A stretch of 35,758 nt of DNA from an uncultured Clostridia bacterium (GTDB taxonomy: Bacteria > Bacillota > Clostridia > Christensenellales > UBA1242): the NCBI GenBank assembly GCA_904397185.1, contig CAJFOL010000085.1, positions 1-35,758 of the forward strand. Direction: 5' to 3'. The notes under the pieces were generated by a model. It was not told the DNA's origin. It searched no databases and saw only the letters and a list, made by a program, of their open reading frames with translations. Each line of letters begins with the position of its first letter. Positions within the stretch are counted from its first letter, which is position 1. The translations under genes and the position numbers were made by a program. Positions 150 to 14,870 of the stretch are shown piece by piece.

Positions 150-1067
150 AAGCATTACAATAAAGATTAAAGATAGCAAGGTTGAAATCATAGCATGACT
201 AAATTTTTGAAGTACAAATAGCCAGACAGGCATATTTAGTTTATTCAGCATTGTCAGTGATTGCAGTATTGTTGATATACCACCAAAACTGATTACAAAT
301 GTACAAGCGACAATTGACCACTTGTTTGGCAATGCAGAGGAGATATCAATACAACCTTTCGTTATTTCAATAATGCCTTCTAAAACACAAGAAACACTTT
401 TGGGGAATAGATTAAAGATAGGTGATAGTGAAGTTATAACTACGAAAAATATTGCAATTATCACACCGACAGAAATTATGCTTAGGGCGGAATCTAAGAC
501 AATACTTGATAGGTCGGTATTTAGTTTGCTTTTATTTTCTGTTTTGTCCGAAGTTGTGTCTTTGATATTTAGTTTTCTGTATAACAAACCATTTATCAAA
601 GCACCTAAAATATGAGATATAAAGATAATATAGCCATAGACAGCATTTGATAACATTCCTATTCCAACTGCACCAATAATGAACATAGGTCCCGAAGTCG
701 AGCAGAAACTTGTCATTTTAAAAGCATCACTTTTTGTTATTTTACCACTTTGGTAAAGGTCGGCTGTCATTTTTGCCCCAACAGGGTAGCCAGAAATGGC
801 ACTTGTCAAAAATACATAAGAAGAAAGAGTTGAGGTTCCAAACAGTTTTTTACATGGCAGGGCAAAGACCTTCGAGACCCTTTCAACAACTTGTGTTGCC
901 GATAATATTTTAGTGAAGAAAATAAAAGGCAGAACACTAGGCAAGACATTAAAAGCCCATGCACTTATGCCGTTTAGTGTTTGTGACATATATAACTTCG
1001 GGAATAACACCATATTAATTATTAAATATAGAATAAAAATAGACAAAAAAATATTATATTTTTTCAT
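147..1067 (-). CDS. Polytopic membrane protein, YlbJ-like (sporulation integral membrane protein / nucleoside-recognition Gate-domain family)
   Basis: Multi-TM ORF with Gly-rich segments (SGYPVGAK, STSGPMFIIGAVG) typical of the YlbJ/Gate family. GGAG lies 6 nt upstream of the ATG at 1067. The track start at 1079 is an upstream in-frame TTG that contains that RBS. Confidence 0.55.
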   Translation of the reverse strand: MKKYNIFLSIFILYLIINMVLFPKLYMSQTLNGISAWAFNVLPSVLPFIFFTKILSATQVVERVSKVFALPCKKLFGTSTLSSYVFLTSAISGYPVGAKMTADLYQSGKITKSDAFKMTSFCSTSGPMFIIGAVGIGMLSNAVYGYIIFISHILGALINGLLYRKLNIKDTTSDKTENKSKLNTDLSSIVLDSALSIISVGVIIAIFFVVITSLSPIFNLFPKSVSCVLEGIIEITKGCIDISSALPNKWSIVACTFVISFGGISTILQSLTMLNKLNMPVWLFVLQKFSHAMISTLLSLIFIVML

Positions 1068-1083
1068 AAATATCTCCAAAAAT

Positions 1084-1112
1084 TTGACATTACAACTTGT
1101 AAATAATATAAT
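1084..1112 (+). promoter_or_regulatory. Consensus sigma-A promoter upstream of pta-ackA
   Basis: TTGACA (1084-1089), 17-nt spacer, TATAAT (1107-1112). Confidence 0.65.
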
Positions 1113-1243
1113 TAGATTAGAATTAAATCACATTAGGTTAAAAGGCTTGTACAACTATGTATACAAGACTTTTTAGTAGTGTTATATTCATAATAGATAT
1201 TTTATGATGTCTTATTAAAAATCATTATTAAAAAGGGGATAGA

Positions 1244-2227
1244 ATGAAGGTAAAAGAACTTTATAAGAAGGCCCGAGAACTTAAAAAAACTATAGTTTTT
1301 CCAGAAGCGGGCTTTAGCGATAGGACACTAGAGGCGATAAAATACATTCAAAAGAAAGGCATTGCAAGACCGATATTGATAGGGGATGAAAGTGCGCTCG
1401 TTTTAAGAGATAAATCACTTATTGATTATCAAATTATAAACCCACGAACATTTCAAGGTAAAGATGAACTTGCAAAAAGACTTTATGATAAACGTAAAGA
1501 AAAAGGTATGACAATGGAAGAGGCGGAAAAGTTGACTCTTGACCCTTACTATTTTGCTACTTTACTTGTCGATGCTGGGCTTGCGGACGGCATGGTGGCT
1601 GGTGCAGAAGCATCAACAGCAAACACTGTTAGACCAGCCTTGCAAGTGATAAAAGCGAAGAAAAAAGGTGGGATTGTTTCATCATGTTTTCTAATGTTTG
1701 GAAAGAATAAATTTTTAAAAGATAAAGCACTGATTATTGCCGATTGCGGTGTAATAATGCATCCAAACGAAGATGAACTCTATCAGATTGCCTGTCAAAG
1801 TGTTGAGACCTATCAATGCTTAGGGCTTAAGGATCCTAAGGTTGCATTTTTGTCTTTTTCGAGCAAAGGATCGGCTAAAGATGAGAGTGTAGAAGTTGTT
1901 AGAAAGGCATACGAAAAATTTAAAATAACAGGAATACCTTGTGATGGTGAATTGCAGTTTGATTGTGCAATGGTACCGCGAGTTGCAAGTCATAAAGCAC
2001 CACAAAGCCCTATAAAAGGTGATGCGAATATACTTATATTCCCAGATCTAAATAGTGGGAATATATGTTATAAAACCATGCAATATATAGGTGGGTTAAA
2101 TGCAATAGGTCCATTACTTCAGGGACTAAACAAACCTGTCAATGACCTTTCAAGAGGTTGTTCGGTAGAAGATATTGTTACTGTAACGGCAGTAACAGCA
2201 TTACAAGCAAATAAGGAGGAAAAATGA
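1244..2227 (+). CDS. pta: Phosphate acetyltransferase
   Basis: 327-aa PTA_PTB family protein (ADGMVAGAEAST, SRGCSVEDIV). AGGGGA RBS. ATGA overlap with the downstream acetate kinase gene. Confidence 0.9.
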   Translation: MKVKELYKKARELKKTIVFPEAGFSDRTLEAIKYIQKKGIARPILIGDESALVLRDKSLIDYQIINPRTFQGKDELAKRLYDKRKEKGMTMEEAEKLTLDPYYFATLLVDAGLADGMVAGAEASTANTVRPALQVIKAKKKGGIVSSCFLMFGKNKFLKDKALIIADCGVIMHPNEDELYQIACQSVETYQCLGLKDPKVAFLSFSSKGSAKDESVEVVRKAYEKFKITGIPCDGELQFDCAMVPRVASHKAPQSPIKGDANILIFPDLNSGNICYKTMQYIGGLNAIGPLLQGLNKPVNDLSRGCSVEDIVTVTAVTALQANKEEK

Positions 2228-3435
2228 AAATATTAGTTGTAAATGCAGGAAGTTCGTCATTAAAATTTCAATTATTTGATATGGAAAATGAAAGTGTAAT
2301 TGCAAAAGGCAATTGCGAAAAAATAGGGTTGCCAGGTTCTTTTATCGGATATAAGACTACTGGCGATAAAAAAGAAGTTATGGTAGATATGCCTGACCAT
2401 AAAGTTGCCATTGCAAAGGTTTTTGAAATGCTGACAGACAAGAAAGATGGTGTTATAAATAGTGTGGATGAGATTGATGCTGTAGGACATAGATTTGTGC
2501 AAGGCGGATGGCTTTTTAATGAGAGTGTTCTTATGAATGAGGATGTGGTTAAAAAACTTGACCAGATTGCCGAACTTTCACCTCTTCATGCTCATGCAAA
2601 TATGGCTGGATATAAAGGTTGTGTTGCTTTAATGCCAAACACTCCTCAAGTAACGGTATTTGATACGTCGTTTCATGCGACTATGCCAGCAAAAGCATAT
2701 ATGTACGGCATTAAATATGAAGATTACGAACAATACCATGTAAGAAAATATGGTTTCCATGGTACAAGCCACAGATATGTTATGGGCGAATGTGCAAAAC
2801 TTCTCGGCAAAAAGCCAGAGGATATAAATATAATCACAGTACACTTAGGCAACGGCTCTTCAATCACTGCAATAAAGAATGGAAAGAGTGTTGATACCAC
2901 AATGGGTCTAACCCCACTTGAAGGTCTTATTATGGGGACTCGCTCGGGCGACCTTGACCCAACTGTTGTAAGTTATCTTGGCAATAAGAAAAATATGACT
3001 GCAGAGCAAGTTGTAAATTATCTTAACAAACAATGTGGTATTATGGGAGTAAGTGGTGTTTCCAGTGATATGAGAGAACTTAACAGTGCTATTGAAGCAG
3101 GAAACGAAAGGGCTAGACTTGCTCTTGATATGCTTATTTACAGAGTTAAGAAGTTTATAGGCTCTTACATGGCAGTGCTTGGAAGGGTTGATGCAATTGT
3201 GTTCACTGGCGGAATAGGTGAGAATCAAGAAGACTTGAGAGAAGAATCTCTTAAAGATATGGAAATGTATGGCATCGAAATAGATGTTGATAAAAATAAT
3301 CATCTTCCACGAGGAACTACAGAAGAAATTAGTACCAAAAATTCAAAAATTAGAGTATTTAGAATACCAACAAACGAAGAACTTTTGATTGCAAGAGATA
3401 CACAAGAACTTGTTATGAAAAGTAAAAAACAATAA
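2224..3435 (+). CDS. ackA: Acetate kinase
   Basis: MKILVVNAGSSSLKFQLF N-terminus, plus GFHGTSHRYV and FTGGIGEN motifs. 403 aa. Confidence 0.93.
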   Translation: MKILVVNAGSSSLKFQLFDMENESVIAKGNCEKIGLPGSFIGYKTTGDKKEVMVDMPDHKVAIAKVFEMLTDKKDGVINSVDEIDAVGHRFVQGGWLFNESVLMNEDVVKKLDQIAELSPLHAHANMAGYKGCVALMPNTPQVTVFDTSFHATMPAKAYMYGIKYEDYEQYHVRKYGFHGTSHRYVMGECAKLLGKKPEDINIITVHLGNGSSITAIKNGKSVDTTMGLTPLEGLIMGTRSGDLDPTVVSYLGNKKNMTAEQVVNYLNKQCGIMGVSGVSSDMRELNSAIEAGNERARLALDMLIYRVKKFIGSYMAVLGRVDAIVFTGGIGENQEDLREESLKDMEMYGIEIDVDKNNHLPRGTTEEISTKNSKIRVFRIPTNEELLIARDTQELVMKSKKQ

Positions 3436-3471
3436 ATTTTTGTGTGACTTATAATTATTTTGTAAAATAAC

Positions 3472-3500
3472 TTGACAATTATAAATAAAATCAGTATAAT
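3472..3500 (+). promoter_or_regulatory. Consensus sigma-A promoter upstream of rpmF
   Basis: TTGACA (3472-3477), 17-nt spacer, TATAAT (3495-3500). Confidence 0.65.
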
Positions 3501-3634
3501 TGTATAGCATGATATGAATATATCGGGGTAAAGTTTAAGTTACAAAATAGCAATAAAAGTTGTGTTTAAGCAATATAAAGAGATTTTAGACTAAAACCGA
3601 TTAAAATTATAGCAAAACAAGGAGGAAAGACAAG

Positions 3635-3826
3635 ATGGCAGTTCCAAAGCACAAGGTTTCAAAGGCGAGAAGAAATACAAGACATTCTGCAAATTCAAAA
3701 GCAGTTATGCCTACACTTGTTGAATGCCCACAATGTCATGAGTTAAAACAACCTCATACAGTATGCAAGAAGTGTGGAACATACAAGGGTGAAACAGTCA
3801 TAGCCAAGAAAGAAGAGAAAAAATAA
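3635..3826 (+). CDS. rpmF: 50S ribosomal protein L32
   Basis: MAVPKHKVSKARRNTRH N-terminus and CPQC...CKKCG zinc ribbon. AGGAGG RBS. Confidence 0.93.
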   Translation: MAVPKHKVSKARRNTRHSANSKAVMPTLVECPQCHELKQPHTVCKKCGTYKGETVIAKKEEKK

Positions 3827-3835
3827 AAAATTATG

Positions 3836-3871
3836 AAAGTCTTTAAGTTTTTTAAAGACTTTTATTTTTTT
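3836..3871 (+). terminator. Intrinsic terminator after rpmF
   Basis: AAAGTCTTTAA / TTAAAGACTTT 11-bp stem with a 5-nt loop, followed by TATTTTTTT. Confidence 0.75.
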
Positions 3872-3889
3872 GTCTAAATTATCAAAAAT

Positions 3890-3943
3890 CACTATATATG
3901 CTATTATGTATGACAGACATAATACGAGATATAGTGTTTTTTT
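3890..3943 (+). terminator. Second, compound hairpin plus T7 (tandem terminator or structured element)
   Basis: Outer stem CACTATAT/ATATAGTG (8 bp), a 4x4 internal loop, inner stem TATTATGT/ACATAATA (8 bp) and a 7-nt loop, followed by TTTTTTT (3937-3943). Confidence 0.5.
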
Positions 3944-3998
3944 ATAAAATATGCCTTTCAACCTTTAATAAAAATTTAAAAAGTTTTAATAAAATAGT

Positions 3999-4027
3999 TT
4001 GCATTTATCATATTTTTTTGTTATTAT
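3999..4027 (+). promoter_or_regulatory. Sigma-A-like promoter upstream of plsX
   Basis: TTGCAT, 17-nt spacer, TATTAT, with a TGt extended -10. Confidence 0.45.
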
Positions 4028-4067
4028 ATTGGTGAGTTTTTAATATTTAGTGATAAAGGAGAAAATC

Positions 4068-5075
4068 ATGAAAGTCGTAGTAGATGCATTTGGTGGAGAT
4101 AATGCTCCTGTTGAAATTGTTGAGGGAGCAGTCCTTGCAGTTAAAAATAATAAAAACCTCGAGGTAATACTTTGCGGAAAAGAGGATAAGATTAAAGAAA
4201 TTTTAAGGGGAAGAACAGAGCGAATAGAAATTGTCGATGCAAGTGATGTTATCACAAATGATGATGCTCCTACAGAAGCAATCAGACATAAACCTAATTC
4301 GTCACTTGTTGTGGCATATGACATTTTGAAAACAAGAGATGACGTTATTGGTCTTGTAAGTGCGGGGCCGACTGGGGCTGTGCTTGCTGGGGCTATAATG
4401 AAGATAGGTCGTATTAAAGGTATATCACGACCTGCACTTGCACCAATTTTGCCAACAAAGGTAGATGGCAGTGATGTTATTATTATTGATAGTGGTGCAA
4501 ACATTGATTGCAAACCTATCAATCTATTGCATTTTGCATTAATGGGCTCAGCCTACTATTCAATAATATATAACAAAAAAGAGCCAAGAGTCGCACTTTT
4601 AAACAATGGTGCCGAAGATGAAAAAGGAAATGAACTTGCAAAAGAAACTTTTCCACTTTTAAAAAATGCCCCAATTAATTTTATAGGGAACAAAGAGGGC
4701 GGTGACTTTATGAGTGGTGATGTTGATGTCATGGTTGCCGATGGTTTTGCAGGAAATGCTCTTTTAAAAGGTACCGAGGGTGCTGTGAAAGCAGTTATTT
4801 CAATACTTAAACGTAGTATAAAATCTCATTTTTGGTCAAAAGTCGGATATCTTTTTATGGGCAAGACTTTTAAAGAGATTAGAGAGCGAGTTGACGTCCA
4901 AAGGAAGCATGCTGGTTCGCCACTTTTGGGTTGCAAAAAGTTGGTAGTCAAAAATCATGGCTCGTGTGATAGAGTAAATATTCAGGCATCCATTGAACAG
5001 ACAATAAAACTGCATAATAACAACTTAAATCAAAGGATAGAAGAGGCAATTGCATCTTTAAGCGAAAAAATTTAA
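4068..5075 (+). CDS. plsX: Phosphate acyltransferase PlsX
   Basis: MKVVVDAFGGDNAP N-terminus typical of PlsX. AAGGAG (4056-4061) lies 6 nt before the ATG at 4068. The track start at 4050 is an upstream GTG. Confidence 0.9.
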   Translation: MKVVVDAFGGDNAPVEIVEGAVLAVKNNKNLEVILCGKEDKIKEILRGRTERIEIVDASDVITNDDAPTEAIRHKPNSSLVVAYDILKTRDDVIGLVSAGPTGAVLAGAIMKIGRIKGISRPALAPILPTKVDGSDVIIIDSGANIDCKPINLLHFALMGSAYYSIIYNKKEPRVALLNNGAEDEKGNELAKETFPLLKNAPINFIGNKEGGDFMSGDVDVMVADGFAGNALLKGTEGAVKAVISILKRSIKSHFWSKVGYLFMGKTFKEIRERVDVQRKHAGSPLLGCKKLVVKNHGSCDRVNIQASIEQTIKLHNNNLNQRIEEAIASLSEKI

Positions 5076-5170: not shown

Positions 5171-5800
5171 ATGAATATAAATTACAATTTTAAAGACAAA
5201 AAACTGCTTGATAGGGCATTGACACACTCGTCAAAGTCAGAGTTAAATTATGAGCGTCTTGAGTTTTTAGGTGACAGCATTTTAGATTTTTTAGTAGGTG
5301 AATATTTCTTTAAAAATTGTAGAGATGACGAGGGAAAATTGACTGTGCTACGAAGTCATTATGTTTCTGAAAATAATTTGGCAAAATTGTTTGATAAACT
5401 TAATCTATCAGGCGAAGTGAAACTCGGGAAAAGTTATCAAGGAGAGATTTCAAAGGCGATTAAGGCTGACGTGATAGAGGCTCTTATTGCTGGAATTTAT
5501 CTTGATGCGAAAGAAAAAGGTATAGAAAAAGCAAGAGAATTTATAATGCGATATTTTGACCTTGAAAATTACAAATCCATTGTCGATGACAATTATAAAT
5601 CTCGTCTGCAAGAACTTATCCAAGGCAATTTCAAGTGTAAAATGCAGTATGTTACTGTCGCTTGTGATGATGGCTTTGAGTCAAGTTTCTATATGGATGA
5701 GGATAAAATTTCGGTGGGATATGGAAAGAGTAAGTTGGAGGCTGAGCAACAATCGGCTAAATTTGCCATTGAAAAATTGTTCTTGATTGATAATAAATGA
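5171..5800 (+). CDS. rnc: Ribonuclease III
   Basis: RNase III signature ERLEFLGDSILDF and a C-terminal dsRBD (YKSRLQELIQ...GKSKLEAEQQSA). AGGTGG RBS. Confidence 0.9.
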   Translation: MNINYNFKDKKLLDRALTHSSKSELNYERLEFLGDSILDFLVGEYFFKNCRDDEGKLTVLRSHYVSENNLAKLFDKLNLSGEVKLGKSYQGEISKAIKADVIEALIAGIYLDAKEKGIEKAREFIMRYFDLENYKSIVDDNYKSRLQELIQGNFKCKMQYVTVACDDGFESSFYMDEDKISVGYGKSKLEAEQQSAKFAIEKLFLIDNK

Positions 5801-5840
5801 TTTTAAAAGTTAGAAGATAGCCAAAAATTTGTAAATATAT

Positions 5841-5869
5841 TTGTAAATAACAAAAAAGTTTGTTATACT
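5841..5869 (+). promoter_or_regulatory. Sigma-A-like promoter upstream of smc
   Basis: TTGTAA, 17-nt spacer, TATACT, with a TGt extended -10. Confidence 0.45.
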
Positions 5870-5918
5870 ATTTTTGTAATAATTTTGTGGCTTTAGGTCA
5901 CGTTTACATGAGGTTTTT

Positions 5919-8900
5919 ATGATTTTTAAGAAAATTGAAATGGTTGGGTTTAAGTCGTTTGCAGATAGGACCACTATCGAATTTAACGACAACTTTACAG
6001 CCATAGTGGGTCCTAATGGTTGTGGAAAAAGCAATGTTTCTGATGCAATACGTTGGGTTCTTGGGGAACAAAGTCCTAAGAGCCTACGTGGTGATAGTAT
6101 GCAAGATGTTATCTTTAATGGTACAGAGAAAAGAAAAAGCCTTTCATACTGCGAAGTCACTTTGACATTTGATAACACAACACGTTTTTTCAATTTTGAT
6201 TATGACGAACTTGCCATTACTCGTAAGTTATACCGCTCTGGAGAAAGTGAATATCTTATAAATAGGAACACCTGCCACCTTCGAGATATCACCAATTTGT
6301 TATACAATAGTGGGCTTGGTAAAAACGGATACTCGGTTGTAAGCCAAGGCAAAGTTACAGAACTTGTCGATGCAAAACCTGAAAATCGTAGGGCTATGTT
6401 TGAAGATGCGGCAGGTATCTCAAAATATAAAAACGATAAAAAAGAGGCTGAGCGAAAACTTGAAAGGACGACTGACAATCTCACTCGTGTAAAGGATATT
6501 CTGTCAGAGATTGAAAGGCAAATGGGACCTTTAAAGAAACAGGCGGAAAATGCTAAAAAATATCTTGAATATAAGGACAAGTTAAAAGACCTTGAAATCA
6601 ATGCATATATTTATCAATATGAGAATGCAAACGAAGCGAAAGAAAAGATTAATTTAAAACTTGATGCCTTGAAAAAACAAATAGACATTAGGCAACAGGA
6701 CTTAGATAGCACAAGTGCAACATATGATAAGTGTATGTTTGATTTGACTAACTTTGATAAGACCTTGGCACAACTCAACGAAAAGATTTTGGAACTTACT
6801 GTCAACCTTGAAAAACAGGAGAGTGAGACAAAACTTGCAAGGGAGAGAATAAATTATACCTATAAAGAAAATGATAGGTTGAATTTAGATAGGTCCAATG
6901 CTCAAACGGCAATTGAGGCATATGAAACAGAAAAGACAGGCAAAGAGGAACTTCTTAAAGAACTTACTAGCGACCTTGAGGCACTTGAAAAGTCTTTTGA
7001 TGAATTATCTGAGAGTTATTCAAAGATTGCAAACGAATTGACTTTGAGCGAGGATGAGGCAGGACAAGGACAGCAGAGAGTTATTGAAACTCTTGGCTCT
7101 CTAAGTGACATTAAGAGTTCGGTGTCAAGACTGCTCGCCGAGAAGGAACTTCTCTCAACAAATCTAAAGAACTTAAATGAAGATATGCTTGCATTGACAA
7201 GCAAACGTGAGGAGAATACAAATTTATTGTCGCAAAGCAAATCTAGTTGTGACGAAAAAGAAAAATCTCTTGACGAAATTAAGAAGAAGATTGAGTCGCT
7301 TGCAAGTGGCAATTATATTTTAGAGCGAAGACTTAAAGACCTTGACAATGAAAAGGCTAATCTTAATACTCAAATAAAGGTTTTTGAAAATAGGAAGAAA
7401 CTTTTGACCGACCTGCAAAACGAGTATGAGGGCTATTCATATGCAGTCAAAAAATTACTACGTGAGAGCGATAAAAATAGTTATATAAAGAAGAACATTG
7501 TCGGAGTTGTAGCATCGCTAATAAAAGTCCCTGAAAAGTTTGAGACTGCCATTGAGGTGGCTCTTGGCGGAGCGGTACAAAACATTGTCACATATGACGA
7601 AGAAGGGGCTAAAGAACTTATTAAATTTTTGAAAGACAACTCCTTTGGTAGGGCGACATTCTTGCCTATAACTTCTATGAAAAGAAGAAGTTTTGACGAG
7701 AGACTGATTGCGGGGAAACAGGGCTGTTTTGGGCTTGCTAGTTCGCTTGTTGACTACGATAAGAAGATAGATAATGTTGTAAGCAATTTGCTTGGCTCAA
7801 CAGTTATAGTAGACACTTTGACAACTGCCGTCAACCTTGCAAAATCAAGTGGTTATTCGTTTAGAATAGTCACTCTTGATGGTGATGTGGTAAACCCACA
7901 AGGCTCGCTTACTGGTGGTAGTAAAAAAGCGGAATCTTCCAACCTTATTGGACGAGAACGTGAGATTGAAACACTTGGTATTGATATCATAAAACTTGAA
8001 AAACGTGTGGAAGAAATTACCAAAGAAATTGCCTCTGATAATTTAAAGTTTGCCGAGCAAAAGAAGGTTATAGATGAATATAATGCTCAGAAAAATAGCC
8101 TTGAAATAGAACTTGCCTCAGAGAAGGAAAAACTTAACAGTTTCAAGACGATTGTTGAAGAGACAGAAGATAATTATAAAGTTGCTGAGATGGAAGCGAC
8201 AACTGTCCAAAACAAACTAAAACTCATCTCTGATGAACTTGATAGGTCACAAAAAATTGAAAGTGCCCTTTCAGGCAATAAGGTCGATGCTGACGAACTT
8301 ATTAAAGAAAAACGCGAAAAAAATGAGGCTTTAAGACAGGAGCGGGACAAGATAAACAACAATATCTTGACTGTAAAAGTTGAAATTGCCGAGACAAAGA
8401 CAAAGATTTCATCTGTTCAAAGTGATATTGAAAGACTTGAGAATGAGATAGGCAAATTTAAGATGAATATAGTCAACCTTGACGAGCAGATAAAACAGAA
8501 TAATAAGTTTATTGAGTCATGTGAAGAGATGATAAAGCAAAAACTCGCTTCTGCTCCATCTTCCGCTAAAAAGACAGAACTTGAAGAGCATATCAAACGT
8601 AGAGGCGGGGTAGAAGAGGACAAAGCGAAGTTATCTGATAAAATAAAACAACTCGATAGTCAAAAATCGGCGATTATGGATGAACTTTCATCGCTTCGAG
8701 ATAGGAAGTTTAGAGAGGAGATGAACCTTTCTAAAGTCGATACCGAACTTGAACAAATGCAGGAGCGAATTTATGAAGAATACTCTCTTACATATTCGAC
8801 CTGCCTTGAACATAGACGTGGCGATTTTGATATCAATGTGGCTATGCCTGAGATTGCTAAACTTAAAAAGGATATAAATGCACTTGGCTATGTCAATGTC

Positions 8901-10401: not shown

Positions 10402-10438
10402 AAGTCTAATGAAAATTATTTATAAAAAGGAGATAAAA

Positions 10439-10708
10439 ATGGACGAAGATTTAGAAGAAATTAATTATAAGTTTGATACACAACTTTTGCTTGAAGGTAA
10501 AGATTTGTCTGATGAAAAGGTAAAAGATTATATTACAAAAAATATTGAAGGCGATTGCCTTTTAGTCGTCGGTGATGACGAACTTTTGAAACTTCATTTT
10601 CATACTAACACACCATGGAAGGTGCTTGAATATTGTGCTTCACTAGGTGAAATTTATGATATTGTAGTAGAAAATATGCCACGTCAAGCCCAAGGACTTA
10701 AAGGGTAA
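10439..10708 (+). CDS. Stand-alone small protein resembling the middle domain of DAK2-fusion protein YloV/FakA
   Basis: 89 aa from the ATG at 10439, with AAGGAG 7 nt upstream. GDCLLVVGDDELLKLHFHTNTPWKVLEYCASLGEIYDIVVENMPRQ matches the remembered FakA/YloV segment GDSLLVV.D...KVHVHT..PG.VL.Y....G.L..I.I.NMR.Q. Confidence 0.55.
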   Translation: MDEDLEEINYKFDTQLLLEGKDLSDEKVKDYITKNIEGDCLLVVGDDELLKLHFHTNTPWKVLEYCASLGEIYDIVVENMPRQAQGLKG

Positions 10709-10965: not shown

Positions 10966-11709
10966 GTGGATATGATTTATGAAAGTTTTGCGAAGTTTGT
11001 CAGCAAGATATGTTGCTTCACATCTTTTGTGAGCAGTATACAAGGTTTTCCAAAACCGCTTACTAAAGAAGAGGAACTTGAATATATAGAGAAGTTAAAA
11101 CAAGGCGACAAAGATGCGAGAGAGGTTTTAATAAATCATAACCTTAGACTTGTCGCACATATTGTCAAAAAATATAGCAATTCCCTTGAAGCCGATGACC
11201 TAATCTCTGTGGGGACAATAGGTCTTATAAAGGCTGTAGACAGTTTTAACGGCGAAAAGGGAGTCCTTCTTTCGACATATGCATCAAGGTGTATAGAGAA
11301 TGAGATTTTAATGCTTATTCGTGCTAATAAAAAACATAAAGACACAATTTCGCTTAATTCTATGCTTTCACCAAAGCCTGATAGCGATGAAATGGAACTT
11401 GCAAATTTAATACCAGCACAGACCGAAGAGGATGTTTTTCATCAAGTGGAGACGGGTTGCCTTATGCAAGATGTTGAAAAGGCGATGGAAAAATACCTGT
11501 CTCCTATGGAACAGGAAATTATAAAATACCGCTATGGAATTTGTGGATATGAAGTCAAGACACAAAAGGAAGTTGCTGACATTTTTAATATCTCACGGTC
11601 ATATATTTCAAGGATAGAATCAAAGGTTATACGAATTTTGCAAAAAAATTTGGTAAAAAATGTCGATAATACCAAGGAAAATCAAAAAAAATCTGAAAAA
11701 ATATTGTAA
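10966..11709 (+). CDS. sigK: Sporulation sigma factor, pro-sigma-K type (SigE not fully excluded)
   Basis: FTSFVSSIQGFPKPLTKEEELEYIEKLKQGDKDAREVLINHNLRLVAHIVKKY closely follows B. subtilis pro-SigK (FLVSYVKNNAFPQPLS...NLRLVAHIVKKF). YASRCIENEILM and the region 4 segment SRSYISRIE are present. A pro-peptide-like hydrophobic N-terminus is present. The start is GTG 10966 or ATG 10972. The gene is uninterrupted. Confidence 0.75.
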   Translation: MDMIYESFAKFVSKICCFTSFVSSIQGFPKPLTKEEELEYIEKLKQGDKDAREVLINHNLRLVAHIVKKYSNSLEADDLISVGTIGLIKAVDSFNGEKGVLLSTYASRCIENEILMLIRANKKHKDTISLNSMLSPKPDSDEMELANLIPAQTEEDVFHQVETGCLMQDVEKAMEKYLSPMEQEIIKYRYGICGYEVKTQKEVADIFNISRSYISRIESKVIRILQKNLVKNVDNTKENQKKSEKIL

Positions 11710-11715
11710 AATATC

Positions 11716-11743
11716 TTGTCAATTTCAAAAAATATTATATACT
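11716..11743 (+). promoter_or_regulatory. Sigma-A-like promoter upstream of the DAC-like ORF
   Basis: TTGTCA, 16-nt spacer, TATACT. The region is AT-rich, so specificity is limited. Confidence 0.35.
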
Positions 11744-11853
11744 ATTTATAATAGATTTAATTTTTTATTGAAAATTACTATTTATTGCTTAATTTTATAC
11801 TTAAAATTTTATTTATTAAAATTTTTTAAAGTTATATTTAAAAAGGAGCAGAA

Positions 11854-13221
11854 ATGGAAAAGACAGAATTTTACAAAGTTGTCAACAAATTGATTTTACC
11901 ATTATTTACTGGCTCTTTTATTGACGGAGAGGAGGAATCTTCAACTCGTGATAGCGAAGTGGCATTTGGGAAAAGAAATTCTCTTTTGATTAAGCCTTCA
12001 AAACTTGATGAGTATAGACTGATTTTAAAAAGAGGACAACCATTTCAAAACTTCGAAGTAAACTTGCTTAGGTCAATTTTAAATGAAATTGATAAGATTT
12101 CAGCCCTTGGGCTTGATGATGAGAGTTATGTTTCAGTATTGCAAAACAATGCAATAGAAAAATCAATATGTGCCTCTATCAGTGATAGTGAAACGGCTAT
12201 TATCATGTTTGGTATTATAACTGAACTTGAAAAATGGGCGGCTCGTACTTATGAAGGGAAAAAGATAGCGATAGGCATCATAATAAACACAAGTATTGAT
12301 ACGTCAGAACAGCCAGAAACAATATCATATAGTGATATTATGGCTAAGGACTTTTTTGCCTTACTTTCGGACGGCATTGATTCTTATATAGAATTTGACA
12401 AGAAGGGAAATCTTGCAGGATATGTCCAGATGGAAAGGGTGAAAAAAGTGCCAAACATTGCACCATATGAGTTTGAAAAGGTGGCAAGATATTGCAATGA
12501 AAAACGTATTGGTATAGTACTTACACAAAATGGCGACTTTTTGATATTTAAAAACAGAGAACTTTTATTTTCAAAGCGAATGGGAACTTGGAATATTTAT
12601 TCGCATGAGGAAGTTATACAACTTTTGTCTAATAGAGGCAATTATTCATTAAAAGATATAAGAAGGTCGGTATATTATACCGCTCTTGACACTTCTTTTG
12701 CATATAGTGGGGGCTGTATTATATATCTTAATAAAGACACAGTTGAGGGTGCTTTAACACATATCAATGCTCACGATATTTTAGATGAAAAATACTTCGA
12801 AATTAAGAAAAAACAAGAACTCGAAGATGCTGGAAAACTTTACAATCTTCAAACTCTTGCGACTGTTGAGGCAATTTATAATGTTCCATATCAAATATTT
12901 TTAGAGCAACAACATTGTGTAAAGGCAGAATGTCTACGTAAAATAATTTCAGGCAAACCATTTCATGAACTTAGTAGGAAACTGCGACAGGAACTTGTTA
13001 GTATGGATGGGGCGACAGTGATTGATAGTGAAGGCACAATTATTGCAGTAGGAGCCATCTTGAAAATAGAGGCGGGGAGCGATGGTGGTGGACGACTTGC
13101 GGCAGCGACAACACTATCAAAATATGGCATAGCAATCAAGATATCACAGGATGGTATTCTTAAGGCATTCTATCAAGATAAGAAAAACGGAAAAGTGAAA
13201 ACACTTTTTACCGTAGGATGA
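11854..13221 (+). CDS. Uncharacterised protein with tandem diadenylate-cyclase (DisA_N/DAC)-like halves; DGA motif kept, RHR motif lost
   Basis: AAGGAG RBS. The C-terminal ELVSMDGATVIDSEGTIIAVGA...GGGRLAAATTLSKYGIAIKISQDGILKAF aligns ungapped with the remembered DisA segment ELAKMDGAIVL...GTRHRTAERVAKQTGKLVISVSQ...ITLY. An earlier segment (GKKIAIGIIIN...LSDGIDSYIEFDKKGNLAGYVQM...VARYCNEKRIGIVLTQNGDFLIF) repeats the same pattern. Confidence 0.5.
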   Translation: MEKTEFYKVVNKLILPLFTGSFIDGEEESSTRDSEVAFGKRNSLLIKPSKLDEYRLILKRGQPFQNFEVNLLRSILNEIDKISALGLDDESYVSVLQNNAIEKSICASISDSETAIIMFGIITELEKWAARTYEGKKIAIGIIINTSIDTSEQPETISYSDIMAKDFFALLSDGIDSYIEFDKKGNLAGYVQMERVKKVPNIAPYEFEKVARYCNEKRIGIVLTQNGDFLIFKNRELLFSKRMGTWNIYSHEEVIQLLSNRGNYSLKDIRRSVYYTALDTSFAYSGGCIIYLNKDTVEGALTHINAHDILDEKYFEIKKKQELEDAGKLYNLQTLATVEAIYNVPYQIFLEQQHCVKAECLRKIISGKPFHELSRKLRQELVSMDGATVIDSEGTIIAVGAILKIEAGSDGGGRLAAATTLSKYGIAIKISQDGILKAFYQDKKNGKVKTLFTVG

Positions 13222-13249
13222 TTGACTTTTATGATAAATATGCTATAAT
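13222..13249 (+). promoter_or_regulatory. Promoter of RNase P RNA
   Basis: TTGACT (directly abutting the upstream TGA stop), 16-nt spacer, TATAAT, with a TGc extended -10. Confidence 0.6.
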
Positions 13250-13253
13250 AGTG

Positions 13254-13578
13254 TTGTTATGCAGACAATCGCGTCAATTTTGATGAGGAAAGTCCGAGCA
13301 TCAAGAGAACTGGGTGCCGATTAACGGTCGGCGGAGGCGACTCTAGGACTAGTGCAACAGAAATAAACCGCCAAAATTTGGTAAGGATGGAAAGGTGGTG
13401 TAAGAGACCACCGCTTAACTAGGGATAGTTAAGGCTCTGTAAACTCCACTCGATGCAAGGTCAAAAGGGCATATGTGCTTGTTCTCTCACGCCCTGAATG
13501 AACCGCTTGAACTTACTGGCAACAATAAGTCTAGATAGATGATTGTCTAATACAGAACTCGGCTTACAGCATAACTGA
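13254..13578 (+). ncRNA. rnpB: RNase P RNA (M1 RNA), type-A-like, compact (~320 nt)
   Basis: Universal P4 strands GAGGAAAGTCCGAGC (13285-13299) and ACAGAACTCGGCTTA. P1 is GTTATGC/GCATAAC and P2 is GACAATC/GATTGTC. GGTAAGGATGGAAAGGTGGTGTAAGAGACCACCG and GTAAACTCCAC...GCAAGGTCAAAAGGG parallel E. coli M1 RNA. The ends are approximate. Confidence 0.92.
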
Positions 13579-13606
13579 CCAGTCTTTTAGGGCTGGTTAT
13601 TTTTTT
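13576..13606 (+). terminator. Intrinsic terminator after rnpB
   Basis: TGACCAG/CTGGTTA stem with one G:U pair, extendable inward, followed by TTTTTTT (13600-13606). Confidence 0.65.
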
Positions 13607-14870
13607 GTCTAAAATCAATTTTTTTGTCAATAATTACAGTATGACAAGGAAAGAATATCTCTTAAAAATAGAAAATTTAATAGTAAATAAACTAAAATAC
13701 CATGCTCCCATTTTAAATAGTGATGACATTGATTATTCATTAATTGATGCAGTGGGAATTGACACGGCATTGCCTATATTTATCTATCGTAAACCGCTTG
13801 ATAAACTGTTTTTTGCCGCCTTTTATTCTGTCAAAAAGAAGTGCGATTTTAATCTTATTTTGACTGCGAAGCCTCTTGTGAAAGATAGAAGAATAAAGTT
13901 ATTAAAAAATACCTATGTGCTTTTAGAAGACAGTATAGGGAGCGAATTGAGTCATGCCATTGATGCTTTAAATATAAATTACTTAGCACATAGTGACTAT
14001 GAAAATATAACTCATGAGGAATATTTAAAATTTAATGATAAGGTCTTAGAGTTTGAATATATACCTTATTATTTTACTAAAAAAGTCATGGATAAGGGAG
14101 TGATATTTCAAGCCACAAATTTTATTTTAAATGGTAAAAATTATATATTAAATATTACCAATACCTTAAAGAATATGACTAAAATGTCCTTTGAAATTAA
14201 CATTCCTTTGCCTCGAGGGTATTACTTTTTTAAACAGGGTAAAGACTTTGTTGAAATTGAAAACTTAACCTCAAAAGAAAAGGCATACTTTAATTATCAT
14301 TTTAAGGATGCCAGTATTACTTTTTCAAATATGAATGGAATCGAAAGTTGCACATATGCTTGTGTAAATTTAAAGTGTGGAATAAACTTACTACCAAAAC
14401 AAAATAAGAAGTTATACTTTAATTTTGGAGAGAATAAATATTGTATTTATTCGCCAAATGATATGCAATATTTTTTCAATCTTTCACAACAAAAATTGAA
14501 TGAAATTTTTGATTTAAAAGTCACAACTTCCGACAAGCAAAAAGACCAACTTTTCAACTTCTATTTACCGCGAAATATCTACTCAAAATGGCAAAATTTT
14601 GATGTTGACGAAAAAAGTGAAAATGATTATATAAAAATGCGAAATTTATATGTCAAAAAAAGTGAAAAAGGGGAGCAAATAAATCAGGATATCAAGGGAC
14701 TAAAAGAGGTCAAATTCTACCGTAATTCCAAGTGGAAACGCGTTTTTATATTACACAATTCATCATGCTATATGTTTGCTGATAAAGTTAAATATTTTAA
14801 CTACACTTTGCTCACAAATGAAATTTTTAATAAAAATAATGAAATTTACTTGTCTTTTGCCTCTTACTAG
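13605..14870 (+). CDS. Hypothetical protein (Asn/Lys/Tyr/Phe-rich, no recognised motif)
   Basis: A 421-codon open frame in very AT-rich DNA, where stop codons should be frequent, so it is likely real. The start is uncertain: the TTG at 13605 sits in the rnpB terminator T-tract, the alternative ATG is at 13641, and neither has a clear RBS. Confidence 0.6.
   Translation: MSKINFFVNNYSMTRKEYLLKIENLIVNKLKYHAPILNSDDIDYSLIDAVGIDTALPIFIYRKPLDKLFFAAFYSVKKKCDFNLILTAKPLVKDRRIKLLKNTYVLLEDSIGSELSHAIDALNINYLAHSDYENITHEEYLKFNDKVLEFEYIPYYFTKKVMDKGVIFQATNFILNGKNYILNITNTLKNMTKMSFEINIPLPRGYYFFKQGKDFVEIENLTSKEKAYFNYHFKDASITFSNMNGIESCTYACVNLKCGINLLPKQNKKLYFNFGENKYCIYSPNDMQYFFNLSQQKLNEIFDLKVTTSDKQKDQLFNFYLPRNIYSKWQNFDVDEKSENDYIKMRNLYVKKSEKGEQINQDIKGLKEVKFYRNSKWKRVFILHNSSCYMFADKVKYFNYTLLTNEIFNKNNEIYLSFASY

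What the first reader, a model, noticed from the sequence alone, without database searches (positions are those of the whole stretch)
11854..13221. Tandem, internally duplicated DAC (diadenylate cyclase)-like protein with DGA kept and RHR lost, wedged between sigK and rnpB
**C-terminal half.** Aligned from memory against DisA/CdaA DAC domains, it gives ELVSMDGATVIDSEGTIIAVGA (DGA = D385-A387, nt 13006-14) and GIAIKISQDGILKAF (the VISVSQ...I strand). In an ungapped alignment anchored on those two blocks, the catalytic RHR column reads G412-G413-R414 (nt 13087-95).

**First half.** Residues ~135-235 repeat the same element order (GKKIAIGIIIN / LLSDGIDSYIEFDKKGNLAGYVQM / VARYCNEKRIGIVLTQNGDFLIF), with DGA changed to DGI and no RHR. 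The protein therefore looks like two fused DAC folds, both degenerate.

**Other regions.** There is a ~70-aa helical insertion (aa ~305-375) in copy 2 and a ~130-aa N-terminal region without any motif I recognise.

**Interpretation.** DACs work as head-to-head dimers. A covalent pseudo-dimer lacking RHR could be a nucleotide sensor or receptor, or a cyclase with altered chemistry. The position next to sigK recalls the sporulation-specific DAC CdaS of B. subtilis, but the upstream promoter looks sigma-A-like. There is no adjacent effector (TM, nuclease or TIR), so I do not read it as a CBASS-like defence operon.
Basis: partly seen in the sequence, partly recalled or inferred. Interest (0 to 1): 0.72.

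Follow-up and report, generated by a model that had tools for sequence, protein, structure and literature searches.

The report
Unannotated tandem diadenylate-cyclase-fold protein
This conserved gene encodes an unannotated protein built from one dead and one apparently live copy of the enzyme fold that makes the bacterial messenger c-di-AMP. Its distant relatives sit inside anti-phage defence operons, whereas this copy is a stably inherited core gene of a group of gut Clostridia.

Summary
The ORF at 11854-13221 (+, 455 aa) is a real gene. It is under strong purifying selection and sits between a SigK-like sigma gene and rnpB in about 70 related gut Clostridia genomes.

**Structure.** Structure prediction plus Foldseek shows two diadenylate-cyclase (DAC) folds in tandem after a 107-aa N-terminal domain. 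It holds only at fold level, because profile comparison of the two halves is not significant.

The RHR register was off by two. Profile alignment to real DisA/CdaA sequences gives G412-G413-R414-L415-A416 = G-T-R-H-R, so the first Arg is kept. In 366 family members:
- D385, G386 and G412 are invariant.
- R414 is kept in 365, S431 in 363 and D433 in 362.

"DGx + GGR" is the mutationally validated catalytic set of PanS, an active minimal defence cyclase. The C-terminal copy therefore looks live, not degenerate.

**Closest known design.** CdaG/DS-2C has the same logic (N domain + dead DAC-like DACNH + DAC), but its HMMs do not match this protein.

**Family context.** All members are "hypothetical". 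Short-form relatives of about 415 aa are embedded in type I R-M operons (hsdS-X-hsdR) or lie beside patatin/CD-NTase CBASS operons.

**Best reading.** A regulated cyclic-dinucleotide synthase of a new DAC class, here in a housekeeping setting. Activity is untested.

The parts
11854..13221 (+). Complete ORF, 455 aa, tandem-DAC-fold protein (stop codon included)
   Evidence: ORF list. 695 and 935 homologues. AF2 pLDDT 95.1. Purifying selection.
11854..12174 (+). N-terminal domain, aa 1-107: small beta-sheet followed by helices, with conserved R60 and F64. No recognisable family; presumed sensor or regulatory domain.
   Evidence: Secondary structure. Conservation. No Pfam hit.
12175..12639 (+). 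DAC-like domain 1, aa 108-262. Catalytically dead: no DGA, GGR or S-x-D. It has its own conserved residues: Y133-E134-G135, G174, P204, R242, W246, H251.
   Evidence: Modelled alone at pLDDT 90.3. Foldseek top 11 hits are all DAC domains. Conservation. No sequence-profile similarity to DAC.
12640..13218 (+). DAC domain 2, aa 263-455, the probable catalytic copy
   Evidence: Foldseek hits to DisA/CdaA. hhalign to real DAC sequences: 67% probability, E 5e-5. Homologues hit Pfam PF02457 at 24-26.6 bits against a cut-off of 27.
12784..12918 (+). Helical insertion of about 45 aa (about aa 311-355) in the loop after the first strand of DAC domain 2. It is specific to the long-form subfamily.
   Evidence: The family alignment shows most members lack it. 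Helices 312-328, 332-342 and 346-352. The same loop carries about 180 aa of low-complexity sequence in P0121.
13006..13014 (+). DGA motif, D385-G386-A387
   Evidence: D and G are present in 366 of 366 members. Aligned to D75-G76-A77 of TmDisA.
13087..13095 (+). GGR motif, G412-G413-R414. It is equivalent to G-T-R of the canonical G-T-R-H-R; L415 and A416 replace H and R.
   Evidence: hhalign register. G412 in 366/366, G413 in 346/366, R414 in 365/366. PanS uses GGR catalytically.
13144..13152 (+). S431-Q432-D433. By position it is equivalent to the S-E-E of the CdaA 'VSEETG' strand (phosphate and metal ligands).
   Evidence: S431 aligns with S127 of TmDisA. S in 363/366 and D in 362/366. The equivalence of D433 to the CdaA metal-binding Glu is inferred from position.
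11716..11743 (+). Sigma-70-type promoter-like site, TTGTCA-16-TATACT, in the sigK-X spacer
   Evidence: Consensus scan, 10 of 12 matches. The -10 region (AAAAAATA..TATATA.T) is conserved in at least 80% of 18 aligned upstream regions, and TCTTGT is visible in most.
11844..11848 (+). Ribosome-binding site AGGAG, 5 nt before the ATG
   Evidence: Read from the sequence.
10966..11709 (+). Upstream neighbour: SigK-like sporulation sigma factor. No predicted terminator lies before the tandem-DAC gene.
   Evidence: Pfam Sigma70_r2/r4. NCBIfam SigK 249.3 bits, just under the cut-off of 252. Terminator scan.
13253..13582 (+). Downstream neighbour: RNase P RNA (rnpB). It has its own promoter-like site (13222-13249) that starts one base after the stop codon, and a terminator at 13576-13599.
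   Evidence: Rfam RF00010, 254.7 bits. Promoter and terminator scan.

Best explanation
The gene encodes a soluble three-part protein:
- an N-terminal domain of unknown fold family (aa 1-107);
- a DAC-fold domain that has lost every catalytic motif (aa 108-262);
- a C-terminal DAC domain (aa 263-455) that keeps a minimal but complete-looking catalytic set, DGA, GGR and S-x-D.

I read it as a regulated nucleotide cyclase of a so far unannotated DAC class.

**Proposed mechanism (inferred)**
- The live domain binds ATP and a divalent metal through D385/G386 (ribose and metal), G412-G413-R414 (phosphate) and S431/D433 (phosphate and metal).
- It makes c-di-AMP or a related 3'3' cyclic dinucleotide when two live domains meet head-to-head.
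- The dead DAC-like domain and the N-terminal domain act as the built-in regulatory or sensor module. They could occupy or release the face of the live domain.
- This is the same design logic as CdaG/DS-2C (DACNG + dead DAC-like DACNH + DAC), which has been shown to make c-di-AMP.

**Setting in this organism**
- The gene is a vertically inherited core gene with its own conserved sigma-70-type promoter.
- It therefore most likely feeds ordinary cellular second-messenger signalling rather than phage defence.
- Its short-form relatives of about 415 aa are the defence-island version of the same enzyme.

**Shown versus inferred**
- Shown: the gene is real and constrained, it has two DAC folds, the motif set and its invariance, the synteny, and the contexts of relatives.
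- Inferred: catalysis, the product, the regulatory role of domain 1, and the housekeeping role.
For: **Fold**
- The full-length model has pLDDT 95.1 and pTM 0.92, and its top 21 Foldseek PDB hits are all DAC domains.
- The middle domain alone gives DAC domains as its top 11 hits.

**Motifs**
- hhalign to real DisA/CdaA sequences maps DGA, G-G-R (on G-T-R) and S431.
- Counts in 366 members: D385 366, G386 366, G412 366, R414 365, S431 363, D433 362.
- Keeping two acidic metal-ligand positions invariant at about 28% overall identity argues for chemistry, not just binding.

**Precedents**
- PanS is an active defence DAC. Its catalytic sites are DGF and GGR (D71, G72, G107, R108), and mutants lose product.
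- DS-2C/CdaG proteins (DACNG-DACNH-DAC) make c-di-AMP in vitro. DACNH is described as a very distant DAC relative without catalytic residues.
- 17 of 83 family members hit Pfam DAC just under threshold.

**Housekeeping setting**
- The order smc-ftsY-sigma-X-rnpB-orf421-rarA is kept in about 70 of 80 species-level genomes. X identity (55-91%) tracks that of smc and sigma.
- pN is far below pS.
- Gene GC is 35.1% against 33.4% for the window.
- The sigma-70-like promoter is conserved.
- The other long-form members P0122 and P0127 are also in non-defence contexts.
Against: - No enzymatic data exist for any member.
- The canonical His and second Arg of RHR are absent. RHR to AAA abolishes ATP binding and activity in M. 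tuberculosis DisA (PMC3328451), although that mutant also removes the first Arg.
- The query itself has no Pfam DAC hit, and the family profile finds no PDB DAC by sequence.
- I could not inspect model coordinates. The relative orientation of the two DAC folds is therefore unknown, as is whether the live site is free to pair with another protomer.
- I could not check whether these genomes also carry cdaA or disA.
- Rare fusions to HU and SLFN_AlbA_2, together with the type I R-M embedding of relatives, may point to a nucleic-acid-directed activity rather than free-nucleotide cyclisation.
Confidence: 0.5

Rival explanations
1. Nucleotide receptor or pseudoenzyme. The two DAC folds form an intramolecular head-to-head pseudo-dimer whose interface binds, but does not make, a cyclic dinucleotide or ATP. 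The protein would then act as a sensor, buffer or adaptor.
For: - The RHR triad is incomplete, as R-L-A.
- Domain 1 is clearly dead.
- DisA binds c-di-AMP at the interface of two DAC domains (established knowledge; PDB 3c1y and 4yxm are among the hits).
- The high pTM of 0.92 indicates a fixed inter-domain packing.
- Relatives lie beside CD-NTase operons, where a cyclic-dinucleotide binder would make sense.
Against: - The acidic residues D385 and D433 and the GGR loop are essentially invariant across 366 members. That is more constraint than binding alone usually needs.
- The same DGx + GGR set is catalytic in PanS.
- In CBASS-DAC, which has the same gene composition as several relatives' loci, DAC catalysis is what is essential (PMC13069673).
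Confidence: 0.2
2. The window gene is itself an anti-phage defence gene: a single-gene sensor-plus-cyclase, or a guard of other immune systems like its short-form relatives. It would merely be parked in a conserved chromosomal site.
For: **Type I R-M association**
- Short-form relatives are embedded between hsdS and hsdR with 6-26 nt gaps (L093, L104, L117; also L090).
- Type I R-M genes are present in 17 distinct relatives' loci.

**CBASS association**
- Relatives lie next to patatin + CD-NTase in 8 loci. Four are on the same strand with gaps of 8-85 nt (L094, L137, L095, L100).

**Other defence neighbours and variability**
- Relatives also lie next to HEPN/RES genes, a large methyltransferase, and integrases.
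- The spacer between the gene and rnpB/orf421 is a variable insertion spot in relatives.
Against: - About 70 species keep the gene in one core location, with divergence parallel to smc and sigma. That fits vertical inheritance, not island turnover.
- GC is native.
- The housekeeping-type promoter is conserved.
- No effector, R-M or CBASS gene is in the window.
- Genes inserted nearby in relatives are not defence genes.
- The window clade has changed otherwise conserved basic residues of domain 1: R206 to E, and N224-R225 to T-K/Q. This suggests a shift in ligand or partner.
Confidence: 0.15
3. A nucleotidyltransferase with a non-nucleotide or nucleic-acid acceptor. The live DAC domain activates ATP, and the dead domain holds a different 3'-OH or other acceptor (RNA or DNA end, or a protein). 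The product would be an adenylylated macromolecule or a linear or asymmetric dinucleotide rather than c-di-AMP.
For: - The protein is an obligate asymmetric pair of one live and one dead DAC fold in a single chain.
- Short-form members keep Arg at two domain-1 positions (R206, R225). By element order these correspond to the phosphate-binding regions of a DAC (inference).
- There are rare N-terminal fusions to HU (86.8 bits) and SLFN_AlbA_2 (30.3 bits).
- Relatives are embedded in DNA-directed type I R-M operons.
- PanS shows that breaking DAC symmetry changes the product.
Against: - This is entirely inferential, and no DAC-fold enzyme is known to use such acceptors.
- The fusions occur in two clusters only.
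- The domain-1 equivalences rest on secondary-structure order, not on a significant alignment.
Confidence: 0.1

Closest known systems
CdaG / DS-2C (DACNG-DACNH-DAC proteins; NCBIfam NF053872; the DAC component of CBASS-DAC / Liu-DS2)
   Same: - It has the same three-part logic: an N-terminal domain of unknown function, then a very divergent DAC-like domain without catalytic residues, then a DAC domain.
- It is soluble and has no effector domain.
- Relatives of the window protein lie next to patatin + CD-NTase genes, as DS-2C does.
- DS-2C makes c-di-AMP in vitro, and its catalysis is essential for defence.
   Different: - CdaG is about 550-576 aa and has a C-terminal helix bundle. This protein is 455 aa (relatives about 415 aa) and ends with the last DAC strand.
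- NF053872 scores 15.9 bits against a cut-off of 630, and only over aa 372-410. Four relatives give no hit.
- There is no Pfam DACNG or DACNH hit.
- The CdaG DAC domain is described as canonical DisA_N. Here DAC scores fall below Pfam's threshold and the motif is GGR, not RHR.
- The window copy is not in a defence operon.
PanS (minimal DAC of the Panoptoo/PanDA anti-phage systems)
   Same: It has the catalytic motif pair DGx + GGR. In PanS this is D71, G72, G107 and R108, validated by mutation and seen contacting the product in a 1.5 A structure. Here it is D385, G386, G413 and R414.
   Different: - PanS is a single DAC domain of about 150 aa, paired with an S2TM-beta effector gene.
- This protein has two extra domains and no partner gene.
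- The D-to-R spacing is 37 in PanS and 29 here, so the lid loop that is extended in PanS is short here.
Canonical DACs: DisA, CdaA/DacA, CdaM (Pfam PF02457)
   Same: - The fold is the same: Foldseek probability 1.0 and TM about 0.45-0.54 normalised to stand-alone DAC domains.
- The DGA motif, the first Arg of RHR and the Ser of the VSE strand are aligned.
   Different: - There is no HhH or linker (DisA), no transmembrane region (CdaA, CdaM) and no RHR His or second Arg.
- The query is not detected by the Pfam model.
- The second, dead DAC fold in the same chain is absent from these classes.
CdaS (sporulation-specific DAC of Bacillus)
   Same: It is a soluble DAC with an N-terminal regulatory region. 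Here the gene lies next to a sporulation-type sigma gene.
   Different: - There is no CdaS_N/YojJ hit.
- The promoter is a conserved sigma-70-type element rather than a recognisable sporulation-type element.
- The architecture and motifs differ.
PrrC / RloC-type genes embedded in type I R-M operons (positional analogue for the short-form relatives only)
   Same: The position is the same: a single gene inserted between hsdS and hsdR and apparently co-transcribed with them (L093, L104, L117, L090). The comparison with prrC rests on established knowledge of the EcoprrI locus, not on a test here.
   Different: There is no sequence or fold relation. PrrC is an anticodon nuclease with an ABC-ATPase-like domain. 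The analogy does not apply to the window locus.

Membership tests
DAC domain (Pfam PF02457, DisA_N) | Match to the Pfam model at or above the gathering score (27 bits) | tested here: not met
   The query gives no hit, either whole or in three pieces, at E<=10. Homologues P0042, P0074 and P0093 score 25.4, 26.6 and 24.1 bits over aa about 373-433. 17 of 83 members hit at E<=0.01.
DAC domain (Pfam PF02457, DisA_N) | DAC three-dimensional fold | tested here: met
   In the full-length search the top 21 PDB hits are all DAC domains, 20 of them at probability 1.00 and the 21st at 0.85. In the middle-domain search the top 11 are all DAC domains, at probability 0.97-1.00. These are predicted, not experimental, structures, and TM is only about 0.5.
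DAC domain (Pfam PF02457, DisA_N) | DGA motif | tested here: met
   D385-G386-A387 aligns to D75-G76-A77 of TmDisA. D and G are invariant in 366 members. The first DAC-like domain has no such motif: S-D/N-G-x at 172-175, with only the Gly conserved.
DAC domain (Pfam PF02457, DisA_N) | RHR motif | tested here: not met
   The aligned residues are R414-L415-A416. Only the first Arg is kept, in 365 of 366 members. The preceding G-T is G-G, which gives the GGR motif that is catalytic in PanS.
DAC domain (Pfam PF02457, DisA_N) | Synthesis of c-di-AMP from ATP | not testable with these tools
   This needs purified protein and LC-MS or TLC.
CdaG / DS-2C | Match to NCBIfam NF053872 at its cut-off (630 bits) | tested here: not met
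   15.9 bits, E 0.003, over aa 372-410 only. P0142, P0316, P0336 and P0127 give no hit at E<=0.01.
CdaG / DS-2C | DACNG and DACNH domains (InterPro IPR048554, IPR048555) | tested here: not met
   No Pfam hit of any kind is found in aa 1-265 at E<=10, other than chance-level Transglut_N. None is found in 83 members at E<=0.01. A profile-profile comparison with DACNH could not be run because no CdaG sequence was available.
CdaG / DS-2C | Architecture: N domain + catalytically dead DAC-like domain + DAC domain | tested here: met
   Searches give the architecture here. The CdaG description comes from PMC13640721. The resemblance is of design; homology of the N-terminal parts is not shown.
CdaG / DS-2C | Encoded beside a CD-NTase and a cyclic-nucleotide-activated effector | tested here: not met
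   The window neighbours are the sigK-like gene and rnpB. This feature is met for short-form relatives L086, L088, L092, L094, L095, L096, L100 and L137.
PanS / minimal defence DAC | Single DAC domain of about 150 aa with an adjacent S2TM-beta (PanE) effector gene | tested here: not met
   The protein is 455 aa with three domains. No membrane effector gene is adjacent.
PanS / minimal defence DAC | Catalytic DGx and GGR motifs | tested here: met
   DGA 385-387 and GGR 412-414, compared with PanS DGF and GGR. The comparison is by motif and register. No PanS sequence was aligned here.
CdaS | N-terminal CdaS_N (YojJ) helical autoinhibitory domain plus a canonical DAC domain | tested here: not met
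   No Pfam hit. The N-terminal domain begins with beta-strands.
DisA | DAC domain + linker + C-terminal HhH DNA-binding domain | tested here: not met
   The protein ends at the last DAC strand (aa 448-454). No HhH or DisA-linker hit is found.

The most novel reading that the evidence does not exclude
The tandem-DAC family is a new, widespread class of signal-generating immune enzyme. One chain would hold a live DGx/GGR cyclase domain kept in check by a fossil copy of itself. It works as a single gene plugged into type I R-M and CBASS operons, for example as a sensor of infection or of anti-restriction/anti-CBASS factors. In one lineage of gut Clostridia it would have been domesticated into a core, possibly sole or sporulation-linked, cyclic-dinucleotide synthase with a re-tuned sensor pocket.
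Probability: 0.25. Interest if true: 0.8.

Novelty: new variant of a known kind. Interest (0 to 1): 0.6.

Why it matters
- DAC-domain enzymes were long viewed as a handful of housekeeping classes. In 2026 they were shown to act in phage defence: PanS/Panoptoo, PanDA, and CBASS-DAC with CdaG.
- This family falls under the Pfam threshold, carries no annotation anywhere I looked, and is large: 935 clusters at 50% identity.
- If the live domain is active, the catalogue of cyclic-dinucleotide synthases is incomplete in two places:
  - in gut Clostridia, where c-di-AMP also matters for host STING signalling;
  - in defence islands, where a single gene sitting between hsdS and hsdR, or beside patatin/CD-NTase pairs, would be a new signalling input.
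- The dead-plus-live tandem also offers a natural experiment on how DAC pairing is regulated.

Tried and rejected
- **Direct family searches of the query.** Pfam, NCBIfam, PADLOC and PHROGs gave nothing usable. PADLOC on 12 short-form members also found nothing.
- **PDB sequence searches.** Neither the protein nor the family profile found a DAC.
- **Sequence-level internal duplication.** hhalign of aa 130-262 against aa 263-455 gave 4.7% probability, so this was rejected.
Rejected in favour of the profile alignment.
- **Viral structure library (BFVD).** No match with E<0.2.
- **The one 'phage' record with a homologue (MT837587.1).** It is an unverified, unannotated 6.6-kb scaffold that also encodes a 1325-aa wall-protein-like ORF. 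I do not treat it as evidence of phage carriage.
- **A conserved partner gene next to short-form relatives.** None was found.
- **Defence genes in the variable spacer of the window's clade.** The inserted ORFs look like secreted metalloprotease-like proteins, a nucleoside-hydrolase-like protein and an extra sigma factor (judged by eye on the sequences, not by HMM).
- **First attempt to scan genomes with the 83-sequence alignment.** It failed because no conserved stretch was found. A 13-sequence alignment worked but returned only close relatives.
- **Galperin's 2023 DAC classification (PMC10127676).** The paper is not held, so I could not check whether this architecture is listed there.
- **Model coordinates.** They are not exposed, so the two halves could not be superposed and their mutual orientation could not be examined.
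Full report
**1. The observation**

The window has a 455-codon ORF at 11854-13221 on the + strand. An AGGAG lies 5 nt before the ATG.

The ORF is a real gene:
- It has 695 homologues in the word-indexed search.
- An exhaustive HMMER scan finds 935 clusters at 50% identity with E<=1e-3, of which 321 have E<=1e-30.
- Against 11 relatives, non-synonymous differences are 0.04-0.19 per site, while synonymous sites are saturated at 0.65-0.85. The C-terminal domain core is the most conserved part.
- Gene GC (35.1%) matches the window (33.4%).

**2. Surroundings**

- Upstream (10966-11709) is a sigma-70 family gene. Its best NCBIfam match is SigK, at 249.3 bits against a cut-off of 252; SigE is second.
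- Downstream is RNase P RNA (RF00010, 254.7 bits, 13253-13582). It has its own promoter-like site starting one base after the stop codon, and a terminator at 13576-13599.
- The rest of the window is core metabolism and information processing: pta, ackA, plsX, rnc, smc, ftsY, rarA/mgsA, polA, thrS, rpsB.
- No terminator is predicted between the sigma gene and the ORF.
- The spacer holds TTGTCA-16-TATACT (11716-11743). Its -10 region is conserved in at least 80% of 18 aligned relatives, and a TCTTGT -35-like element is visible in most of them.

**3. Fold**

No curated library recognises the protein. Pfam, PADLOC and PHROGs gave nothing usable. NCBIfam gave only a 15.9-bit touch of the DS-2 anti-phage DAC model over aa 372-410.

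Some homologues reach 24-26.6 bits on Pfam DAC (cut-off 27) over aa about 373-433. In all, 17 of 83 members hit at E<=0.01.

With an 83-sequence alignment (A1), AlphaFold2 gives a confident single-body model with pLDDT 95.1 and pTM 0.92. Foldseek against the PDB returns DAC domains of DisA and CdaA/DacA as its top 21 hits. Twenty have probability 1.00 and the 21st has 0.85; E runs from 4e-4 to 8e-3 and TM is 0.45-0.54 relative to stand-alone DAC domains. Unrelated folds follow.

To test the claimed first copy separately, I modelled aa 108-262 alone (A3, pLDDT 90.3). Its top 11 PDB hits are again only DAC domains: CdaM 8ofj at E 2e-5, then DacM, CdaA, DacA and DisA. The next hit is at E 0.27.

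The order of secondary-structure elements is the same in both halves. The tandem-DAC observation therefore stands, with three limits:
- It rests on predicted structures.
- TM scores are only about 0.5.
- There is no sequence-level signal. hhalign of the two halves gives 4.7% probability, and the middle domain against real DAC sequences gives 0.9%.

**4. Motifs**

I recovered real DisA and CdaA sequences from the PDB alignments and aligned the family's C-terminal profile to them. The result was 67% probability, E 5e-5, over 64 columns. The register is:
- D385-G386-A387 on D75-G76-A77 of T. maritima DisA.
- G412-G413-R414-L415-A416 on G106-T107-R108-H109-R110.
- S431 on S127.

The first Arg of RHR is retained, while the His and the second Arg are replaced.

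Counts across 366 full-length members (120 close, 246 distant) are:

| Residue | Members keeping it (of 366) |
|---|---|
| D385 | 366 |
| G386 | 366 |
| G412 | 366 |
| G413 | 346 |
| R414 | 365 |
| K429 | 360 |
| S431 | 363 |
| D433 | 362 |

D433 lies two residues after the Ser, where CdaA has its second Glu of VSEE. That equivalence is my inference from position.

The 2026 structure and mutagenesis of PanS, an active minimal DAC of an anti-phage system, names its catalytic sites as "DGF and GGR" (D71, G72, G107, R108). Mutants at these sites lose product (bioRxiv 10.64898/2026.08.10.743927). So DGx + GGR is a known working variant of DGA + RHR. "RHR lost, hence degenerate" does not follow for the C-terminal copy.

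The older result that RHR to AAA kills M. tuberculosis DisA (PMC3328451) removed all three residues, so it does not bear on this point.

The first copy is truly dead. It has no DGA (S-D/N-G-x, only the Gly conserved), no GGR and no S-x-D. It does have its own conserved set: Y133-E134-G135, P204, R242, W246 and H251.

**5. Insertion and N-terminus**

Most family members are 400-430 aa. The window's clade and a few others (P0122, P0127) carry about 45 extra residues, about aa 311-355. These form three short helices in the loop after the first strand of the live domain. In P0121 the same loop holds about 180 aa of low-complexity sequence, so it is a permissive site.

The N-terminal domain is about 107 aa. 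The helix at 108-129 is the first helix of the dead DAC fold.

**6. Evolutionary setting of this copy**

A scan of one genome per species returned 80 loci, all from uncultured gut Clostridia, some labelled Candidatus Caccovivens.
- In about 70 of them the order smc-ftsY-sigma-X-rnpB-orf421-rarA-orf349 is kept.
- X identity to the window (55-91%) falls in step with smc and the sigma factor.

This is vertical inheritance of a core gene. The spacers around rnpB take up 1-3.6 kb insertions in some genomes, but the inserted ORFs do not look like defence genes.

**7. Setting of distant relatives**

Short-form members (about 30% identical, about 415 aa) occur in Alpha-, Beta- and Gammaproteobacteria and elsewhere. 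Every source calls them "hypothetical protein".

I examined 10 places by exact-protein look-up, 2 plasmids and 49 metagenome loci.
- **Type I R-M.** 17 distinct loci carry type I R-M genes.
  - In L093, L104 and L117 the gene sits between hsdS and hsdR on the same strand, with 6-26 nt gaps on the hsdR side. L090 has the same placement.
  - In L109, L112 and L113 it shares that slot with other defence-like genes.
- **CBASS.** 8 loci have a patatin + CD-NTase CBASS next door.
  - Four are on the same strand with gaps of 8-85 nt and in either order (L094, L137, L095, L100).
  - The others are divergent or convergent (L088, L086, L092, L096).
- **Overall share.** Among the 29 metagenome loci of at least 4 kb, 16 show one of these two associations.
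- **Caveat.** The R-M-linked loci share 63-79% identical HsdR, so many may descend from one event. L082, with a different R-M, is independent.
- **Other places.** Some are next to HEPN/RES, a 957-aa methyltransferase or integrases. Some are ordinary chromosomal sites.
- **Partner gene.** None recurs.
- **Fusions.** Two clusters carry N-terminal fusions to HU (86.8 bits) and SLFN_AlbA_2 (30.3 bits).

**8. Comparison with what is known**

[quoted passage not shown] It is about 575 aa and is found beside CD-NTases (PMC13640721).
- DS-2C proteins make c-di-AMP in vitro.
- In the three-gene CBASS-DAC system (patatin, cGAS-like, DAC), DAC catalysis is essential while the cGAS-like gene is nearly dispensable (PMC13069673).

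The window family shares this design, and its short forms share the neighbourhood. It fails the membership tests that could be run:
- NF053872 scores 15.9 bits against a cut-off of 630.
- There is no DACNG or DACNH hit.
- There is no C-terminal helix bundle.
- The DAC signal is sub-threshold and the motif is GGR.

I therefore file it as a distinct, unannotated DAC class that works like CdaG, not as a member of CdaG. I could not read Galperin's 2023 classification and could not align a CdaG or PanS sequence directly.

**9. Mechanism**

Most likely (about 0.5), this is a regulated cyclic-dinucleotide synthase. The live domain binds ATP and metal with DGA, GGR and S-x-D. It must pair with another live domain to cyclise. 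The dead domain plus the N-terminal domain gate this pairing or sense the input.

In this Clostridia lineage the output would serve ordinary second-messenger signalling. The evidence for that is the conserved sigma-70-type promoter, the core location and the absence of an effector.

The window clade has replaced two basic residues that are conserved in domain 1 of the short forms: R206 to E, and N224-R225 to T-K/Q. That fits a change of input.

The rivals are:
- a non-catalytic nucleotide receptor (0.2);
- a defence role for this copy too (0.15);
- an asymmetric nucleotidyl transfer to another acceptor (0.1).

None is excluded, because nothing in the family has been assayed and I could not examine the geometry between the two domains.

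**10. Verdict**

- Novelty: a new variant of a known kind.
- Interest: moderate to high (0.6). It is higher for the family than for this particular locus.

Noticed in passing
L093, L104, L117, L090/L091 (tight hsdS-X-hsdR); also L099, L109, L112, L113, L116, L122, L133: Short-form relatives of the protein are inserted as a single gene between hsdS and hsdR of type I restriction-modification operons. The position recalls prrC in EcoprrI. In L109, L112 and L113 the same slot also holds other defence-like genes: a large ATPase, a DUF262-like protein, a TIR-like protein and an AAA + RloB-like pair, all judged by eye.
   Followed up: partly
L094 10001-13118; L137 2-2806; L095 2093-5228; L100 6-2048; L088 5822-9266; L086 7971-13771: Short-form relatives lie directly beside patatin + CD-NTase CBASS genes, four times on the same strand with gaps of 8-85 nt. 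This is the gene composition of the validated CBASS-DAC (Liu-DS2) system, but with a different, shorter DAC-fold protein.
   Followed up: partly
P0157 aa 1-89; P0143 aa 26-147: Two family clusters have N-terminal fusions to nucleic-acid-binding domains: HU (PF00216, 86.8 bits) and SLFN_AlbA_2 (30.3 bits). This hints at a link to DNA or RNA.
   Followed up: partly
window 13605-14870 (+): A 421-aa ORF sits just after rnpB and has no Pfam or NCBIfam hit. It keeps its place in about 65 related genomes but diverges fast (28-76% identity, where RarA next to it stays at 57-90%).
   Followed up: partly
L043, L044, L047, L049, L055, L058, L059 (rnpB matches): In a sub-group of related genomes rnpB lies on the opposite strand, at the same position between the tandem-DAC gene and orf421. 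This is a local inversion of the RNase P RNA gene.
   Followed up: no
L058 7362-11011; L055 7353-8979; L001 7365-9216; L057 8166-9844; L061 7733-9784; L037 8119-9730: The spacers on either side of rnpB are a variable insertion spot in relatives (1-3.6 kb). Inserted ORFs include secreted proteins with an HExxH-type motif, a nucleoside-hydrolase-like protein and an extra sigma factor.
   Followed up: partly
window 10409-10708 (+): A stand-alone 99-aa ORF matches only the middle domain of fatty-acid kinase subunit A (PF21645, 69.7 bits). It is present in some related genomes and undetected in others at the same position.
   Followed up: no
window 27972-29462 and 29455-30534 (+): Two overlapping-end ORFs of 496 and 359 aa in the core region have no Pfam hit at E<=1e-5.
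   Followed up: no
window 10966-11709 (+): The sigma factor scores just under the SigK subfamily cut-off (249.3 against 252 bits), with SigE close behind. It starts with a GTG and has a roughly 30-aa leader before region 2, as pro-sigma factors do. Its assignment as SigK rather than SigE is not settled.
   Followed up: partly
L144 (MT837587.1) 849-4826 (-) and 5541-6551 (+): The only 'phage' record with a homologue is an unverified, unannotated 6.6-kb faecal scaffold. It also encodes a 1325-aa ORF that looks like a bacterial cell-wall-anchored protein, so it is probably bacterial DNA.
   Followed up: partly
P0121 aa about 330-510: One relative (596 aa) carries about 180 aa of low-complexity, charged sequence in the same loop of the live DAC domain where the window protein has its 45-aa helical insertion.
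   Followed up: no
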